In this document: one piece after another, positions 7,010 to 11,802 of the stretch
Numbering within the stretch: position 1 is the first letter of the stretch
How the letters are laid out: each line of letters starts with the position of its first letter
NCBI GenBank assembly: GCA_903851445.1
Contig: CAINOH010000009.1
Location: 185,075 to 249,074 of the forward strand
Length of the DNA: 64,000 nucleotides
Origin: an uncultured Candidatus Micrarchaeota archaeon
GTDB lineage: Archaea > Micrarchaeota > Micrarchaeia > Norongarragalinales > CAINOH01
Reading direction: 5' to 3'
Notes under the pieces: generated by a model
What the model was told of the DNA's origin: nothing
The model's database searches: none
The model's input: the letters and a program-made list of their open reading frames with translations, nothing else
Position numbers and translations under genes: made by a program

Positions 7010-7345
7010 ATGCCGGCGCAGGACGACGTGGCATCGAAACTGGCCCTCTTGCAGGCCGACGTGGAGCAGCTGTGCTTGGAGCTTGACGAGCAGAAAAAGG
7101 CGCGCGCGGCGCTGGAAGCCAAGGCGGCTTCACTTTCCGACGGGCTTTTAGAGGCGCGTTCAGATTACGAGGCGCTGGAAAGGAAACAGGCCGAACTGCG
7201 GCTGTCCGTCGAGCGTTCGTCCGCGCTTCTTAAGGCAATCGAGCCCGAAAAGCTCGCGGTGGAGCTTTCCCGGCTTTCCTTTGCGGTAACCTGCCTTCGC
7301 GACAGCCTGCGGCGGCACGAAACCGATGGAAAGCAGCTAGTTTGA
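7010..7345 (+). CDS. Coiled-coil hypothetical protein
   Basis: Heptad Leu pattern across about 100 aa; ATG at 7010. Confidence 0.65.
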   Translation: MPAQDDVASKLALLQADVEQLCLELDEQKKARAALEAKAASLSDGLLEARSDYEALERKQAELRLSVERSSALLKAIEPEKLAVELSRLSFAVTCLRDSLRRHETDGKQLV

Positions 7346-7430: not shown

Positions 7431-7901
7431 ATGCCCCAGCTTCCTACTGAGATTTGGAGACGCAGGATAGAAAGCGAGTACAATCAGCTGCGCAGCCGGG
7501 GCTTTGACTTCGACGTGAACCCGGACCACACGGAATACACTTTCCGCATACTTGGCGATGCGTTGTGCGTGAGGGACGGTGCGCTTGTGCCCGTCAACAG
7601 GCACGTGGTATTCCTGCGGCTTGCGCGCGAATACCCTTACGCCGGCGGGTTTGAGCTTGTCTGGAAGACGCCGATTTTTCACCCAAACATCGACGAGAAG
7701 GGGAAGGTGTGCATCCGGCTTGTGAACCTCTGGGCTGCGGGCCAGACCGTGGCAAGCATCGTCGATGCGCTTGTGCAGCTTTTGGAAAACCCGAATCCCG
7801 ACTCGCCGCTAAACTACGAGGCGGCCCAATATTACCTTGAGAACCCCAAGCCAAAGGCAACAGCGGGCTTCCGGCTTTCGCGGCCAAAGATAGTTGGCTG
7901 A
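7431..7901 (+). CDS. Ubiquitin-conjugating enzyme E2 (UBC fold)
   Basis: RRIESEY helix 1, EYPY, TPIFHPNIDEKGKVC (HPN with catalytic Cys94), W after the Cys, LLENPNPDSPLNYEAA. Confidence 0.93.
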   Translation: MPQLPTEIWRRRIESEYNQLRSRGFDFDVNPDHTEYTFRILGDALCVRDGALVPVNRHVVFLRLAREYPYAGGFELVWKTPIFHPNIDEKGKVCIRLVNLWAAGQTVASIVDALVQLLENPNPDSPLNYEAAQYYLENPKPKATAGFRLSRPKIVG

Positions 7902-9395: not shown

Positions 9396-9926
9396 CTATA
9401 AAACCCGGTGGCTTGGCTTTTCTTTGCCCCAGCCGAGGATGACGTGCGCCCAGACGAGCACGACAACAACCGCATCCGCAAACCACAGCAACACGTGCGC
9501 GGGGTCGAACGCGCCGGCACCCAGGGTTGTTTCTGCCCAGACTGCAAACAGCACTCGCGCGATGTTGAACGCGAACAGGAACGGCGCGTAAAACGCAAGG
9601 GCGTAGGCAACCGCCCTCATTTTCATTTCAGACGCATATAGTGCGGAAGCTAGCAACGCCATCATCACCAACCCGGTGCACTCGATTGCCATCGAGTATT
9701 TCGCCGCGCCGGCAACCACCGTAATTCCCTGCGCGGTTGCGGTTATCCCAACAGCCGAAAGGAGCGGCACAAGCGAGAGGGCAACAAGGCGCTGGAGCGG
9801 GTAAAGAAGGCCGGGCAACGCATAGTCGATTGCGTGGATTGCAGCGTAGAGCAGAAAGAACGCAGCCAGGAACCGGAGGATGAAGCGCTTCTCGTCCGTT
9901 GGCCTTCGCGGGTTATGCACAGCCAA
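9396..9926 (-). CDS. Archaeosortase / exosortase family protein
   Basis: Multi-TM protein with the Cys (AIECTG), Arg (FNIAR) and His (DPAH) triad pattern. Confidence 0.8.
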   Translation of the reverse strand: MAVHNPRRPTDEKRFILRFLAAFFLLYAAIHAIDYALPGLLYPLQRLVALSLVPLLSAVGITATAQGITVVAGAAKYSMAIECTGLVMMALLASALYASEMKMRAVAYALAFYAPFLFAFNIARVLFAVWAETTLGAGAFDPAHVLLWFADAVVVVLVWAHVILGWGKEKPSHRVL

Positions 9927-9930
9927 AGCA

Positions 9931-10494
9931 CTACCAGGGGACGTTCTTTAGTCCGACCTTGAAAGCTATCCAGTTGAAGAGCACGTGCGCGCCATAGCTT
10001 AGTGCGAGCAGGAACACGAAGCCTTCCCAACCTATGAGGGAGCCAAGTTGTGGCGCGGTAAAGCTTGCAAACAGCAGGCTGAGGATTACAAAGCCGAGCT
10101 GGTCGAAACCCGGCAACTGGTTTCCGCTTTCGACGTTGAGCCTGCGCTTTACGAAGCTTCCGAGGACGTCGCCCGCGTGCGCGCCGGCTGAGAGGAACAG
10201 CGAGACCAAGAACCACTGATCGAATGAAAAACCCGTGGGCACGAGGCCGACCCAACCCATCACAGTTCCCACAAGCCAGCCAACAGCAACGCCCCCAATA
10301 AGGCCTTCCCAGGTCTTGTTGTCGCCAAGGATTCGCCGGCCATCCCAGAAGTTCTTGCCGCCGTCAATCGGCGTGGTCTTGATTTTTCCTGCCTTGCCGC
10401 CCGAGGGGTTGAGCCAGACCGGGGCCGCGTTTGCAAAATAAGCCGGCAGTATGAGCAGTACGAGTGAGAACATCCACTGGAGAGTGATTTCCAT
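9931..10494 (-). CDS. carS: CDP-archaeol synthase
   Basis: PAYFANAAPV, PIDGG...DGRRILGDNKTWEG, GDVLGSFVKRR, DQLGF. Confidence 0.93.
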   Translation of the reverse strand: MEITLQWMFSLVLLILPAYFANAAPVWLNPSGGKAGKIKTTPIDGGKNFWDGRRILGDNKTWEGLIGGVAVGWLVGTVMGWVGLVPTGFSFDQWFLVSLFLSAGAHAGDVLGSFVKRRLNVESGNQLPGFDQLGFVILSLLFASFTAPQLGSLIGWEGFVFLLALSYGAHVLFNWIAFKVGLKNVPW

Positions 10495-10529: not shown

Positions 10530-11802
10530 CTGTTGTTGAGACGTCCATATCCTGAACCGTTGTTAGGGCACGGATACTAATCAACGTGGAAATGTGGTCT
10601 GGGAGAGCGTATAAATCATTGGGTTTGTAGTAGTGCGCGCGCATTGTTTATGAAATCTTATCGTTTCAGGGTGTATGCGAACAAGCAGCAGGATGCGGTG
10701 ATGCGCCAGCACTTGTGGGCTTCGAAGAACTTGTGGAACAGCGGTTTGACACTGGCAAAGCAGATGTACGACGATTTTGGTAAGTTCCCAACCCGAAAGA
10801 CACTTCAAGAGATAAGCAAGGATTCAGGATTGTATTCGCAAGTGGCGCAGGGTGTTTTCGTTCGTCTTTCTCTCGCGTTAAAAGCTAATACTAGACGCAA
10901 GAAGGCGGGGTTGAAAGGCGGTTTTCCGCGTTTCAAATCTTTCGATAGGATGAAGAGCTTGCATTATCCGCAGTCTGGTTTCGAGTTGTTACCGAACAAA
11001 AAATTGCAAGTCACTCCTTTCGGCAAGTTGAACATCAAACAACACCGCCCAATTGAAGGTAAAATCAAGGCGTTGACGCTGAAGCGGGAAGCTTCTGGCA
11101 AGTGGTTCGCCATTTTCACAATAGAACAGGACGAGATAGTGCCGTTGGTGAACAACGGTGGGCGAGTGGGCATCGACTTGGGTTTGACTACGCTCGCCAC
11201 GCTTTCAAACGGGTTAAAAATAAAGAATCCACGTCATTTTGATGGGCATCGGGAGAAGTTGGCGAAGTTGCAGAGACGTTTGTCAAGGGCGTTGAAGGGT
11301 GGCAAGAACAGGCGCAAAGCCAAGTTGAAAGTTGCATTGGCACACGAGAAGATTGCCAATGTCCGCAGGGACTTCTTGCACAAGGCCACCGCCAACTTAG
11401 TGAATTCATATTCCTTTATCGCGTTGGAAGAGCTTTCCAGCCAGAGGATGGCGGAACAAAATTTCGGCAAGCAAATCAATGATGCGGGTTGGGAAACGTT
11501 CGCGGGCATGATTGCATACAAAGCGGTGGAAGCTGGTTGCAAAGTAGTGTTCGTGAACCCGAAGAACACTACACAAGAGTGCAGCGGTTGTCACGAGTTA
11601 GTCAAGAAAGATTTGACCGTGCGAGTACATGATTGCTCGCACTGCGGCCTAGTGCTGGACCGTGATGTGAATGCTGCAATAAACATACTCGTCAGAGCTA
11701 CCGTCGGAACGACGGAAAGTAACGCCTGTGAAGATGGAGCGATAGTTCCGTCTGTGAAGCAGGAAGCCACGACTTGTCAGTAGGCAGGTTAAGGTAGTTC
11801 AC
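10530..11802 (+). mobile_element. IS200/IS605-family tnpB-only element (IS1341-like)
   Basis: Left subterminal hairpin TATCC...GGATA near 10546-10575; right end GAAGCCACGACTT...GGTAGTTCAC ending at 11802; codon usage differs from neighbours; left boundary approximate. Confidence 0.75.
10650..11783 (+). CDS. tnpB: RNA-guided endonuclease TnpB
   Basis: KSYRFRVY N-terminus, GFPRFK, RuvC I GIDLG, RuvC II IALEEL, Zn finger CSGC/CSHC, RuvC III DRDVNAAINI. Confidence 0.95.
   Translation: MKSYRFRVYANKQQDAVMRQHLWASKNLWNSGLTLAKQMYDDFGKFPTRKTLQEISKDSGLYSQVAQGVFVRLSLALKANTRRKKAGLKGGFPRFKSFDRMKSLHYPQSGFELLPNKKLQVTPFGKLNIKQHRPIEGKIKALTLKREASGKWFAIFTIEQDEIVPLVNNGGRVGIDLGLTTLATLSNGLKIKNPRHFDGHREKLAKLQRRLSRALKGGKNRRKAKLKVALAHEKIANVRRDFLHKATANLVNSYSFIALEELSSQRMAEQNFGKQINDAGWETFAGMIAYKAVEAGCKVVFVNPKNTTQECSGCHELVKKDLTVRVHDCSHCGLVLDRDVNAAINILVRATVGTTESNACEDGAIVPSVKQEATTCQ

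What the first reader, a model, noticed from the sequence alone, without database searches (positions are those of the whole stretch)
7431..7901. Stand-alone eukaryote-like ubiquitin E2 in a DPANN-type archaeon
Seen: a 156-aa ORF with the full UBC signature: helix 1 RRIESE, YP loop, FHPNI, catalytic Cys eight residues after the Asn (TGC 7710-7712), W, and PNPDSPLN.EAA. Known: archaeal E2s (Caldiarchaeum, Asgard) usually sit in Ub-E1-E2-RING-JAB operons, and bacterial E2-like proteins generally lack such a canonical HPN. Seen: no E1, ubiquitin-like (GG-terminal), RING or JAB gene is recognisable in these 64 kb; neighbours are a coiled-coil protein, a divergent KaiC-like ATPase and an ABC permease. 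Inference: either a dispersed ubiquitylation system in a small-genome archaeon, or an orphan E2 using another modifier or a host's E1.
Basis: partly seen in the sequence, partly recalled or inferred. Interest (0 to 1): 0.85.

Follow-up and report, generated by a model that had tools for sequence, protein, structure and literature searches.

The report
Ubiquitin E2 of a dispersed archaeal system
The gene is a genuine ubiquitin-conjugating enzyme (E2) in a small-genome archaeon, but it is not an orphan: its activating enzyme, ubiquitin-like tag, RING-like partner and removal protease lie just outside the window, and in related archaea all five genes sit side by side.

Summary
Window 7431-7901 (+) encodes a 156-aa UBC-domain protein (Pfam UQ_con 6.5e-18) with HPN at 84-86 and Cys94 (TGC 7710-7712).

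"Stand-alone" does not hold. On the same 452-kb contig, 3.7-12 kb before the window starts, lie:
- a GG-terminal ubiquitin-like protein (87 aa);
- a Rpn11-like JAB protease;
- a winged-helix protein with a C4HC3 RING-like finger;
- the genome's only ThiF/E1.

In the same order (relatives' records are titled Micrarchaeota / Norongarragalinales), each gene was found in 59-64 of 68 genomes. The usual layout is one cluster of about 4 kb: E2<-Ubl | JAB->RING | <-E1. UQ_con was found in 0 of 265 sampled genomes of other families of the phylum.

This genus alone has pulled the cluster apart. The Ubl-E2 gap is 11,145 bp here and at most 1,636 bp in 56 other genomes.

The system closely resembles the Caldiarchaeum Ub/E1/E2/srfp/Rpn11 operon, which has been reconstituted in vitro. 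I found no paper describing it in Micrarchaeota or DPANN, although NCBI already names these proteins E2.

Verdict: a real, probably working ubiquitylation system, and a new lineage of a known kind. Interest is moderate.

The parts
7431..7901 (+). E2 (UBC-domain) gene, 156 aa plus stop. It is the only part of the system inside the window.
   Evidence: Translation is. Pfam UQ_con gives 6.5e-18, and solved E2s match down to 1.4e-13. The gene is single copy in the genome.

The other parts lie on the same contig, upstream of window base 1 (contig coordinate = window coordinate + 185074):
- Ubl, C9:181100-181363 (+)
- JAB, C9:175472-175936 (-)
- wHTH + RING-like protein, C9:174490-175425 (-)
- E1, C9:173223-174089 (-)

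7680..7688 (+). HPN motif (H84 P85 N86)
   Evidence: CAC CCA AAC read directly from the sequence. Invariant in 41 of 41 aligned family members.
7710..7712 (+). Codon of the predicted catalytic Cys94
   Evidence: TGC read directly from the sequence. Invariant in 41 of 41. Aligns with the active-site Cys of UBE2L3 in the phmmer alignment.
7635..7640 (+). Loop-4 P69-Y70, the likely RING-contact motif
   Evidence: P69 and Y70 are invariant in 41 of 41. In the Caldiarchaeum E2, the PY67/68AA mutant abolished srfp-dependent ubiquitylation (PMC5654768, passages seen). That the two PY motifs are equivalent is my inference from position; I did not align them.

Best explanation
The ORF is the E2 of a complete, self-contained, eukaryote-type ubiquitin-like conjugation system. 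The system is inherited vertically throughout one order of Micrarchaeota (probably Norongarragalinales).

Proposed mechanism:
1. The 87-aa beta-grasp protein ends in ...PDPTGG, so it is already mature.
2. The genome's only ThiF-type E1 adenylates it. The tag is probably then held on the invariant crossover-loop Cys186 of the E1.
3. It passes by transthiolation to Cys94 of this E2.
4. It is discharged onto substrate lysines with the help of a 311-aa protein. That protein has an N-terminal winged helix and a C-terminal C4HC3 cross-brace (RING-like) finger.
5. The Rpn11-like JAMM protease reverses the modification. In relatives whose Ubl carries a tail after GG, it would also trim the precursor.

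In most genomes of the order the five genes form one cluster of about 4 kb. In this genus the cluster was broken: a 1446-aa ORF lies between JAB and Ubl, and the E2 now sits 11 kb downstream of the Ubl.

Shown here: gene presence, motifs, co-conservation, synteny, the fold of the Ubl, and family membership of the E2, E1 and JAB. Inferred: every chemical step, E3 activity of the RING-like protein, the substrates, and whether conjugates go to the proteasome.
For: The parts:
- E2: UQ_con over Pfam's cut-off, and HPN and Cys invariant.
- E1: ThiF 2.4e-44. The best solved relatives are UBA1 adenylation domains (2.6e-26), ahead of MoeB (6.9e-18). The GxGxxG glycines, R70, D128, the C167/C170 and C284/H287 pairs and C186 are invariant in 18 of 18. 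It is the only ThiF in the genome. It falls below every NCBIfam cut-off for ThiF, MoeB and UbaA.
- JAB: PF01398 3.1e-15. The best solved relatives are Rpn11 (3.9e-16), CSN5 and the Caldiarchaeum Rpn11-like protein (6e-13). E27, H91, H93, S101 and D104 are invariant in 16 of 16.
- Ubl: the AF2 model has pLDDT 81 with a beta-beta-alpha-beta-beta order. It matches 639 PDB chains at E<=1e-3, among them ubiquitin, ISG15, NEDD8, SUMO and Caldiarchaeum Ub (TM 0.79). PDPTGG is invariant in 44 of 44, and 37 of 44 end exactly at GG. Beyond its own family, the profile finds poly-ubiquitins carrying 11-16 PF00240 repeats.
- RING-like protein: eight metal ligands are invariant in 20 of 20, as C-X2-C-X19-C-X-C-X4-H-X2-C-X10-C-X2-C. 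The Caldiarchaeum srfp is C-X2-C-X11-C-X2-C-X4-H-X2-C-X10-C-X2-C (PMC3082918, passage). A profile search of PDB puts RING E3s in 7 of its 10 hits (AMFR 0.021, RCHY1 0.036), all weak.
- E2 with the RING domain: complex prediction gave weak support, score 0.40 against a best control of 0.11 (3 controls). The mark was reached by 58 of 80 solved complexes and 2 of 110 mismatched pairs. At 0.60 or under, only 7 of those 80 solved complexes passed, and so did both mismatches that passed. The runs agree in at least 71% of contacts and the partner's pLDDT is at least 71. E2-RING complexes are solved, so the pass may come from likeness.

Co-conservation in the order (68 genomes including this one):
- E2 63, Ubl 62, JAB 64, E1 59, RING-like 63.
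- Among the 22 high-quality genomes: 22, 21, 22, 22, 22.
- UQ_con in a sample of the phylum: 35 of 35 genomes of this order's families, and 0 of 265 of 20 other families.

Synteny:
- The Ubl lies upstream of the E2 on the same strand in 57 of 57 genomes with both on one contig.
- The gap is at most 300 bp in 47, 463-1636 bp in 9, and 11,145 bp only here.
- The span of the four genes has a median of 3,967 bp across 47 genomes.

Each of the five is single copy here. No ThiS/MoaD-type carrier was found (the genome is 81% complete).
Against: - No biochemistry exists for any member of this family. Every step is by analogy with the Caldiarchaeum and eukaryotic cascades.
- The RING assignment is weak. 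zf-RING_2 reaches only E 0.028 here, and only 5 of 20 members hit it, all under the cut-off. The fold search of the full-length model found only the winged helix, with no hit at E<=1e-3. A C4HC3 pattern also fits PHD fingers, which are not E3s. The complex prediction is only 'weak support'.
- The E1 is short (288 aa here, about 250 in relatives). It has no separate catalytic-Cys domain or ubiquitin-fold domain. NCBIfam ranks a ThiF model (103.6 bits) above Ube1 (80.5 bits), both far under their cut-offs. 'Eukaryote-like' therefore depends on which library is asked.
- Pfam's ubiquitin model does not detect the Ubl. Only YukD does, at 1.8e-5 and under its cut-off.
- In this genome the genes are not one operon, so co-expression is not implied by layout. 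No RNA run holding the stretch was listed.
- Four of the 68 genomes lack all five genes (61-79% complete). One of them is the sole member of its family.
Confidence: 0.8

Rival explanations
1. Orphan E2. The E2 has lost its own partners and works with another modifier, or with the E1 of a host cell.
For: Within the 64-kb window no partner is visible (searches place them all upstream). In this genus the E2 is unlinked from the Ubl: the gap is 11,145 bp here, and the E2 is on another contig in genus mate G302.
Against: - The partners are intact, single copy and on the same contig.
- Their catalytic residues are conserved.
- The Ubl is 98-99% identical between this genome and genus mate G302, so the tag at least is under strong constraint.
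- The E2 is kept in both genus mates at 90% and 78% identity.
- The order is described as metabolically rich and possibly host-independent (PMC12892359, abstract and passages).
Confidence: 0.03
2. The system is mainly a sulfur-carrier or biosynthetic system. The ThiF-like enzyme and the beta-grasp protein would serve tRNA thiolation or cofactor synthesis (like Urm1/Uba4 or SAMP/UbaA), and protein conjugation would be secondary or absent.
For: It is the only ThiF-family enzyme in the genome, and no ThiS/MoaD was found, so any such chemistry would have to use it. NCBIfam's best-scoring model is ThiF. Dual-function Ubls are known (Urm1 and the SAMPs; PMC4571572, section 9).
Against: - The E1 falls far below the ThiF, MoeB and UbaA cut-offs.
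- The invariant E2, Rpn11-like JAB and RING-like protein have no role in sulfur transfer, yet they are co-conserved and adjacent.
- I saw no rhodanese domain on the E1, which has a single ThiF domain.
- The Ubl model is closest to ubiquitin, ISG15 and NEDD8 rather than to MoaD or ThiS.
Confidence: 0.07
3. An anti-virus defence module of the bacterial E1-E2-JAB kind (CBASS Cap2/Cap3, Bil/Bub-like), which tags viral or signalling proteins.
For: The gene content (E1, E2, JAB, Ubl) is the same as in those systems. The E1 weakly matches PADLOC 'E1-E2' models (best 1.7e-12) and the JAB matches PADLOC JAB models (2e-5). PDB hits include Citrobacter BubCD at 1.7e-7.
Against: - The E2, Ubl and RING-like protein match no PADLOC model.
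- The E1 and JAB match eukaryotic UBA1 and Rpn11 far better.
- The cluster is single copy, at a conserved locus and near-universal in one order (59-64 of 68 genomes). Defence islands are typically patchy (that pattern is recalled general knowledge).
- I saw no cyclase, effector or nuclease beside it in the 19 clusters inspected.
Confidence: 0.05
4. Assembly artefact: the E2 region and the E1/RING/JAB/Ubl region come from different organisms joined in one contig.
For: The genome is a metagenome-derived assembly of 25 contigs, 81% complete. No single independent contig spans the 20 kb.
Against: - GC is even along the window (0.49-0.585) and across contigs (0.52-0.57).
- Short independent contigs at 99% identity or more tile all 30 bins of the 20 kb in three runs and 29 of 30 in a fourth, at similar low depth. 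All four runs are from one study.
- The window's E2 groups with the E2s of its own taxonomic family on the tree (SH-aLRT 96), as vertical descent predicts.
- Both halves of the layout recur in genus mates. Ubl-1525-aa ORF-JAB-RING-E1, with a 425-aa and a 261-aa ORF on the Ubl's far side (sizes match the enolase-sized ORF and the inositol monophosphatase here), is in L081. KaiC-coiled coil-E2-FtsX is in L083 and L084.
Confidence: 0.03

Closest known systems
Caldiarchaeum subterraneum (Aigarchaeota) Ub / E2-like / E1-like / srfp operon with a divergent Rpn11-like gene (Nunoura 2011, PMC3082918; Hennell James 2017, PMC5654768; Fuchs 2018, PMC6043591)
   Same: - The same five components.
- The JAMM gene is divergent from a Ubl->E2 pair in both.
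- The finger has a C4HC3 ligand pattern identical from the fourth ligand on (X4-H-X2-C-X10-C-X2-C).
- The JAB matches CsRpn11 at 6e-13.
- The Ubl model matches CsUb with TM 0.79 and 26% identity.
- The E2 loop-4 PY motif is present.
   Different: - Gene order: here RING follows JAB and the E1 is convergent, whereas in Caldiarchaeum ubl-e2-e1-srfp run in one direction.
- The finger is fused to an N-terminal winged helix in a protein of 245-414 aa, rather than being a small stand-alone srfp.
- The Ubl is usually made mature (37 of 44 end at GG), whereas CsUb has a 9-residue tail.
- The host is a DPANN lineage.
- In this genome the cluster is dispersed.
- No biochemistry exists for this family.
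Asgard archaeal ubiquitin modifier systems
   Same: On my E2 tree the Micrarchaeota E2s fall on the same side of a 99% SH-aLRT branch as E2s from a Sigynarchaeum, a Promethearchaeota, a Bathyarchaeota and a Desulfurococcales genome. These E2s are 31-38% identical to the window's. The Promethearchaeota locus has JAB-E1-E2 in a row.
   Different: I found no relative of this RING-like protein or of this Ubl by BLAST in those four loci. The relationships inside the clade are unresolved, and the tree has no root and no eukaryotes.
E1-(Ubl)-E2-JAB operons of Methanomassiliicoccales and other Thermoplasmata (seen here). These may be the 'JAMM-3' group with Ub, E1 and E2 homologues of Fuchs 2018, whose taxa are not named in the text I could read.
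   Same: E1, E2 and JAB homologues lie in one operon. Identities to the proteins here are E2 29-41%, E1 25-49%, JAB 32-44%.
   Different: They form a separate E2 clade, all genes run in one direction, and no relative of the RING-like protein was detected by BLAST in those loci.
SAMP/UbaA sampylation of Haloferax, and Urm1/Uba4
   Same: A ThiF-type E1 activates a GG-terminal beta-grasp protein, and a JAMM protease reverses the modification.
   Different: Those systems have no E2 or E3. The E1 here is far under NCBIfam's UbaA cut-off (74 against 450 bits), and the JAB far under the desampylase cut-off (29.5 against 130). No ThiS/MoaD-family protein was found in this genome.
Eukaryotic E2s such as UBE2L3/UbcH7 and UBE2A/Rad6
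   Same: The alignment covers the full UBC core (residues 11-141) with HPN, Cys, Trp and the PNP loop. The stretch HPNIDEKG-VC is shared almost letter for letter with UBE2L3 (alignment).
   Different: E-values are only about 1e-12 to 1e-13. The archaeal E2s above are closer (tblastn 3e-32 for the Bathyarchaeota E2, 8e-29 for the Sigynarchaeum E2).

Membership tests
UBC / E2 superfamily (Pfam PF00179) | Profile match over the curated threshold | tested here: met
   65.1 bits against a cut-off of 27, E 6.5e-18. The whole-genome scan gives 64.9 bits.
UBC / E2 superfamily (Pfam PF00179) | HPN motif, with the catalytic Cys eight residues after the Asn | tested here: met
   H84 P85 N86 and C94. Invariant in 41 of 41.
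UBC / E2 superfamily (Pfam PF00179) | UBC fold (alpha/beta sandwich) | not tested
The support is by sequence only: alignment to solved E2s over residues 11-141. In the complex job the E2 chain had pLDDT 80-83, but no fold comparison was made.
UBC / E2 superfamily (Pfam PF00179) | Forms a thioester with a Ubl charged by an E1 | not testable with these tools
   Needs an in vitro assay with a C94A control.
Archaeal eukaryote-type ubiquitylation system (Caldiarchaeum/Asgard kind) | Beta-grasp modifier with a C-terminal Gly-Gly | tested here: met
   The model has pLDDT 81. It matches ubiquitin-family chains, including CsUb. PDPTGG is invariant in 44 of 44.
Archaeal eukaryote-type ubiquitylation system (Caldiarchaeum/Asgard kind) | Dedicated ThiF-type E1 with eukaryote-like features | tested here: inconclusive
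   ThiF 2.4e-44. Among solved structures UBA1 is best, but NCBIfam ranks ThiF over Ube1. The eukaryote-specific motifs named by Nunoura et al. were not checked residue by residue.
Archaeal eukaryote-type ubiquitylation system (Caldiarchaeum/Asgard kind) | Rpn11-like JAMM protease with an intact E...HxH...S..D motif | tested here: met
   PF01398 3.1e-15, Rpn11 3.9e-16, motif invariant in 16 of 16.
Archaeal eukaryote-type ubiquitylation system (Caldiarchaeum/Asgard kind) | RING-finger E3-like protein | tested here: inconclusive
   For: eight ligands invariant in 20 of 20, in a pattern close to srfp, and weak profile hits to RING E3s. Against: Pfam is under its cut-off, no fold match was obtained for the finger, and the complex job gave weak support only (0.40 against 0.11).
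Archaeal eukaryote-type ubiquitylation system (Caldiarchaeum/Asgard kind) | Components encoded together in an operon-like cluster | tested here: not met
   Not met in this genome: the span is 19.7 kb and the Ubl-E2 gap is 11,145 bp. It is met in relatives: the span is 2.9-5.9 kb in 45 of 47 genomes with E2, Ubl, JAB and E1 on one contig.
Orphan / stand-alone E2 | No cognate E1 or Ubl in the genome | tested here: not met
   The E1, Ubl, JAB and RING-like genes are on the same contig.
Bacterial defence E1-E2-JAB systems (CBASS Cap2/Cap3 and kin) | Match to PADLOC defence models | tested here: not met
   The E2, Ubl and RING-like protein give 0 families. The E1 and JAB give only weak generic matches (1.7e-12 and 2e-5).

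The most novel reading that the evidence does not exclude
One whole order of DPANN archaea (probably Norongarragalinales) carries a complete, vertically inherited ubiquitylation cascade that includes an E3. This would be the first such system outside the TACK and Asgard lineages.

Its E3 has a new architecture: a winged helix fused to a C4HC3 RING-like finger. That could place ubiquitin-like tagging on DNA-bound or chromatin proteins.

The system was found in none of the other sampled Micrarchaeota, and its E2 groups with Asgard and Bathyarchaeota E2s. This points to a single ancient transfer at the base of the order, or to a wider and older archaeal distribution of E3-containing ubiquitylation than current accounts assume.
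Probability: 0.4. Interest if true: 0.6.

Novelty: new member of a known kind. Interest (0 to 1): 0.42.

Why it matters
Accounts of where eukaryotic ubiquitylation came from rest on a few archaeal lineages: Aigarchaeota and Asgard, where RING E3-like proteins accompany E1 and E2. A complete set that is near-universal in an order of small-genome DPANN archaea widens that picture in three ways:
- It gives 60-odd natural sequence variants of each component for comparison.
- It offers a compact system of mesophilic origin for reconstitution (the low predicted growth temperature is from PMC12892359, passage).
- It shows a RING-like finger already fused to a second, possibly targeting, domain.

For this scan, the practical lesson is that 'stand-alone' was an effect of the window's edge.

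Tried and rejected
- Ubiquitin Pfam model (PF00240) on the whole genome: no match, and it rang in none of the 14 control genomes, so the blank says nothing. The Ubl was found instead by scanning ORFs for a C-terminal GG.
- Search for a conserved extra gene in the 370-900 bp between JAB and Ubl, by tblastx among 21 upstream regions: the matches I inspected (printed for 4 of the 21 regions) are mostly explained by the JAB gene's own 5' end, so nothing was claimed.
- Fold search of the full-length RING-like model: only winged-helix repressors (MarR type) at E 0.03-0.12, and no hit at E<=1e-3.
- The search for homologous proteins with the E2 alignment, meant to reach named Asgard or eukaryotic E2s: the 120 listed hits, wherever a source names them, are all Micrarchaeota-type; 900 proteins reached E<=1e-8.
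- 1446-aa ORF between JAB and Ubl: no Pfam family, not a Ubl repeat protein, and the best Atlas hit was 0.85, a lead only.
- The look-up of sequencing runs: no RNA holder listed. Four DNA runs of one study hold the stretch.
- Read laying: short contigs tile the 20 kb from E1 to E2, but no piece spans it, so it neither proves nor disproves continuity.
- Literature: nine searches found no paper on a ubiquitin system in Micrarchaeota or DPANN.
  - The 2025 comparative study of 163 Micrarchaeota genomes has 0 occurrences of 'ubiquitin' or 'proteasome' in its main text.
  - Supplements are closed and might list these genes.
  - PMC7203096 mentions both DPANN and ubiquitin, but only its first 300,000 characters are held, and these contain no 'ubiquitin'.
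  - The taxa of the 'JAMM-3' group of Fuchs 2018 are in a figure I cannot see.
- Papers, and what I saw of each:
  - PMC4594999, PMC10989744, PMC4327156, PMC3082918, PMC12892359: passages only.
  - PMC4571572: passages and section 9.
  - PMC6043591: passages and section 6.
  - PMC5654768: outline, abstract and passages.
- Recalled, not from any call: the roles I give to E1 residues (GxGxxG, Arg finger, Asp, zinc pairs), the generic RING, RINGv and PHD spacing rules, the Rad6-like Ser in the PNPxSP loop, and the patchiness of defence islands.
Full report
**1. The observation**

Window 7431-7901 (+) is an open frame of 156 codons plus a stop.
- It matches Pfam UQ_con at E 6.5e-18 (65.1 bits, cut-off 27).
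- It matches 260 distinct solved E2 sequences at E<=0.01. The best is 1.4e-13, and UBE2L3 aligns over residues 11-141.
- H84-P85-N86 is encoded at 7680-7688, and Cys94 by TGC at 7710-7712, eight residues after the Asn.
- In an alignment of 41 family members, H84, P85, N86, C94, W101, P121 and N122 never vary.

The motif description, the coordinates and the neighbours are therefore right. The neighbours are a KaiC-family ATPase, a coiled-coil ORF and a MacB/FtsX permease. The KaiC match is strong (3.3e-67), not divergent.

**2. Where the window lies and what stands next to it**

The window is G000:C9:185075-249074, on a 452-kb contig of a 1.09-Mb assembly of 25 contigs that is 81% complete.

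A whole-genome scan finds one ThiF-family gene, at C9:173 kb. An ORF listing of the stretch before the window and Pfam then show four genes.

| Gene | Position on C9 | Size | Evidence |
|---|---|---|---|
| E1-like | 173223-174089 (-) | 288 aa | ThiF 2.4e-44 |
| C-terminal Cys/His finger protein | 174490-175425 (-) | 311 aa | zf-RING_2 only 0.028 |
| JAB/MPN protease | 175472-175936 (-) | 154 aa | PF01398 3.1e-15 |
| Ubl | 181100-181363 (+) | 87 aa | ends ...PDPTGG-stop; YukD 1.8e-5 |

The E2 is at C9:192505-192975 (+). The four partners therefore lie 11-19 kb from the E2. The nearest, the Ubl, ends 3.7 kb before the window begins.

Family HMMs built here find exactly one copy of each of the five in 7,292 ORFs of the genome. 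A Pfam scan finds one JAB, no ThiS/MoaD and two 20S proteasome subunits.

**3. What each partner is**

*E1.*
- The best solved relatives are the active adenylation domains of eukaryotic UBA1 (2.6e-26), UBA6, UBA7, SAE2 and UBA3. These come ahead of MoeB (6.9e-18) and ThiF (6.1e-16).
- Against that, NCBIfam ranks a ThiF model (103.6 bits) above Ube1 (80.5 bits). All models fall far under their cut-offs, including UbaA.
- In 18 family members the nucleotide-loop glycines, R70, D128, two Cys/His pairs (C167/C170 and C284/H287) and a lone C186 between them are invariant. I take C186 as the candidate thioester Cys; this is an inference.

*JAB.*
- The best relatives are Rpn11 (3.9e-16), CSN5 (5e-13) and the Caldiarchaeum Rpn11-like protein (6e-13).
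- The JAMM residues E27, H91, H93, S101 and D104 are invariant in 16 of 16.

*Ubl.*
- An AlphaFold2 model from 44 sequences has pLDDT 81 and a beta-beta-alpha-beta-beta order.
- It matches 639 PDB chains at E<=1e-3. The top hits are ISG15, ubiquitin, NEDD8 and SUMO, and Caldiarchaeum ubiquitin scores TM 0.79.
- A profile search of 1.84 billion representatives finds only 98 proteins at E<=1e-3. Beyond the family itself, the three large multi-stretch hits that I scanned are poly-ubiquitins with 11-16 PF00240 repeats.
- PDPTGG is invariant in 44 of 44. Of these, 37 stop exactly at GG and 7 carry tails of 2-26 residues.

*Finger protein.*
- The model (mean pLDDT 69.8) has a confident winged helix at residues 45-127 (pLDDT about 95), a disordered linker, and a C-terminal domain at 240-311 (pLDDT about 80-90).
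- The fold search sees only the winged helix, weakly.
- The finger has eight invariant ligands in 20 of 20 members: C-X2-C-X19-C-X-C-X4-H-X2-C-X10-C-X2-C.
- The RING motif reported for the Caldiarchaeum srfp is C-X2-C-X11-C-X2-C-X4-H-X2-C-X10-C-X2-C (PMC3082918, passage).
- A profile of the finger against PDB sequences gives ten weak hits, seven of them RING E3s (AMFR 0.021, RCHY1 0.036, RNF24, EL5, RNF4).
- A complex prediction of the E2 with residues 232-311 gave weak support. The score was 0.40 against a best control of 0.11 (3 controls). The mark was reached by 58 of 80 solved complexes and 2 of 110 mismatches. At 0.60 or under, only 7 of those 80 solved complexes passed, and so did both mismatches that passed. 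Contact agreement was at least 71% and the partner's pLDDT at least 71. The pass may come from memory of solved E2-RING pairs.
- I therefore call the protein RING-like and a candidate E3, not an E3.

**4. Relatives**

Proteins like the E2 that carry a name are called 'ubiquitin-conjugating enzyme E2' or 'hypothetical protein' of Candidatus Micrarchaeota, Micrarchaeia or Norongarragalinales. Related loci come from records with the same titles. NCBI places Norongarragalinales in Micrarchaeia, phylum Microcaldota. That the window's genome belongs to this order is an inference from these titles and from the tree.

In a sample of 301 genomes of the phylum, UQ_con is present in this genome and in 35 of 35 genomes of the ten families of its order. 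It is present in 0 of 265 genomes of twenty other families.

Counts in all 68 genomes held for the order, including this one:

| Gene | All 68 genomes | 22 high-quality genomes |
|---|---|---|
| E2 | 63 | 22 |
| Ubl | 62 | 21 |
| JAB | 64 | 22 |
| E1 (E<=1e-20) | 59 | 22 |
| Finger protein | 63 | 22 |

Four genomes (61-79% complete) lack all five.

**5. Synteny**

These figures come from the coordinates of those calls.
- 61 genomes have both the E2 and the Ubl, and 57 have them on one contig.
- In all 57 the Ubl is upstream on the same strand.
- The gap is at most 300 bp in 47 genomes, 463-1636 bp in 9, and 11,145 bp in this genome alone.
- E2, Ubl, JAB and E1 lie on one contig in 47 genomes. 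The span is 2.9-5.9 kb in 45 of them (median over all 47: 3,967 bp). It is 19.7 kb here and 20.2 kb in one other genome.

I fetched and read 19 clusters from other genera. I chose them among genomes with hits, so they are not a random sample. Eighteen show the same order, E2<-Ubl | JAB->RING-like | <-E1. One has its E1 on another contig.

Genus mate G302 has the same broken layout as this genome: Ubl, a 1525-aa ORF, JAB, RING-like and E1 on one contig, and the E2 on another. The loci with E2s 90% and 78% identical to the window's show coiled coil-E2-FtsX and KaiC-coiled coil-E2, as here. These are probably the same two genus mates.

The dispersal is thus fixed in the genus, and all parts are kept.

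**6. Wider distribution**

The scan of one genome per prokaryotic species found 543 stretches encoding a relative of this E2. Of the 80 kept:
- 52 are Micrarchaeota-type;
- 24 are Thermoplasmata or Methanomassiliicoccales-type;
- one each is from a Bathyarchaeota (38% identity), a Sigynarchaeum (38%), a Promethearchaeota (34%) and a Desulfurococcales (31%) genome.

Most of the Thermoplasmata loci, and the Desulfurococcales and Promethearchaeota loci, carry E1, E2 and JAB in one direction, sometimes with a detectable Ubl. I found no BLAST relative of the finger protein there.

A quick maximum-likelihood tree of 80 E2s separates the 24 Thermoplasmata-type rows from the other 56 (SH-aLRT 99). The other 56 are the Micrarchaeota-type rows plus the four Asgard, Bathyarchaeota and Desulfurococcales rows. 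Those four form one long-stemmed group inside an unresolved part of the Micrarchaeota clade.

The window's E2 groups with those of its own family (SH-aLRT 96).

The tree has no root, no eukaryotes and no Aigarchaeota, and several long branches. It says only that the family is coherent, that the window's E2 sits where vertical descent predicts, and that its nearest outside relatives among those sampled are Asgard/Bathyarchaeota-type rather than Thermoplasmata-type.

**7. Explanation**

The simplest reading is a working Ubl-E1-E2-(RING-like E3)-JAMM cascade of the kind reconstituted from Caldiarchaeum. In that system Rpn11 trims pro-ubiquitin, E1 and E2 form thioesters, and conjugation to a test substrate needs the srfp and the E2 loop-4 PY motif (PMC5654768, abstract and passages; PMC6043591, passages and section 6). 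Here P69-Y70 of the E2 are invariant.

The rivals, and why I rank them low:
- *Orphan E2.* Set aside, because intact partners are present and conserved.
- *Sulfur carrier only.* It does not explain the co-conserved E2, JAB and finger protein.
- *Bacterial-type defence module.* PADLOC has no match for the E2, Ubl or finger protein, and the module is near-universal, single copy and at a fixed locus.
- *Chimeric contig.* Unlikely. GC is even, independent short contigs tile the stretch in four runs of one study, both halves of the layout recur in genus mates, and the E2 sits in the expected place on the tree.

**8. Novelty and limits**

The kind of system is known. What seems new:
- the lineage: a DPANN order, where the set is near-universal;
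- the fusion of the finger to a winged helix;
- the gene order;
- the mostly tail-less Ubl.

NCBI's pipeline already names many of these proteins E2, so their existence is in public records.

Nine literature searches found no description. The 2025 comparative study of Micrarchaeota does not mention ubiquitin in its main text. Supplements were closed, one long paper is held only in part, and the membership of the 'JAMM-3' group of Fuchs 2018 is in a figure I cannot see.

No experiment supports any step for this family, and the E3 assignment is the weakest link.

Noticed in passing
outside the window: G000:C9:176088-180428 (-) = L003:10088-14428: A 1446-aa ORF of unknown function sits between the JAB and Ubl genes in this genus only (1525 aa in genus mate G302, locus L081). 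It has no Pfam family, it is not a Ubl repeat protein, and the best Atlas hit scored 0.85. Its insertion is part of what broke the cluster.
   Followed up: partly
window 7010-7345 (+): A coiled-coil ORF of about 111 aa lies 85 bp upstream of the E2 on the same strand. It is conserved next to the E2 in the two genus-level relatives (64% and 46% identity, L083 and L084) but was not seen beside the cluster in other genera. Its only family matches are weak SMC coiled-coil hits.
   Followed up: partly
loci L135, L138-L162 (named records): E1-(Ubl)-E2-JAB operons, all in one direction, are common in Methanomassiliicoccales and other Thermoplasmata. They also occur in a Desulfurococcales and a Promethearchaeota genome. 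I found no paper that mentions a ubiquitin system in Methanomassiliicoccales.
   Followed up: partly
loci L040, L038, L056, L012, L020, L024, L032: In seven of 44 distinct Ubl genes of the order, the frame reads on for 2-26 residues past the GG. These would need trimming, presumably by the adjacent JAB.
   Followed up: no
outside the window: G000:C9:180429-181099; also the JAB-Ubl spacers of L063-L082: About 670 bp without a convincing gene lies upstream of the Ubl gene. In relatives, 370-900 bp lies between the divergent JAB and Ubl genes. That is long for genomes of about 1 Mb. No conserved ORF emerged, and RNA families were not searched.
   Followed up: partly
window 10644-11783 (+): An IS605 OrfB / TnpB-like gene (OrfB_IS605 7.7e-28, Cas12f1-like TNB domain 9.6e-23) lies 2.7 kb downstream of the E2. 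A mobile element this close could bear on the local rearrangement.
   Followed up: no
window 9396-9926 (-) and 9931-10494 (-): An exosortase/archaeosortase-like membrane protein (PF09721, 1.4e-7) lies directly beside CDP-archaeol synthase (2.3e-36).
   Followed up: no
genome handle G332 (family f31, 79% complete): The only sampled member of one family of the order lacks all five genes of the system. This could be a true loss or an assembly gap.
   Followed up: no
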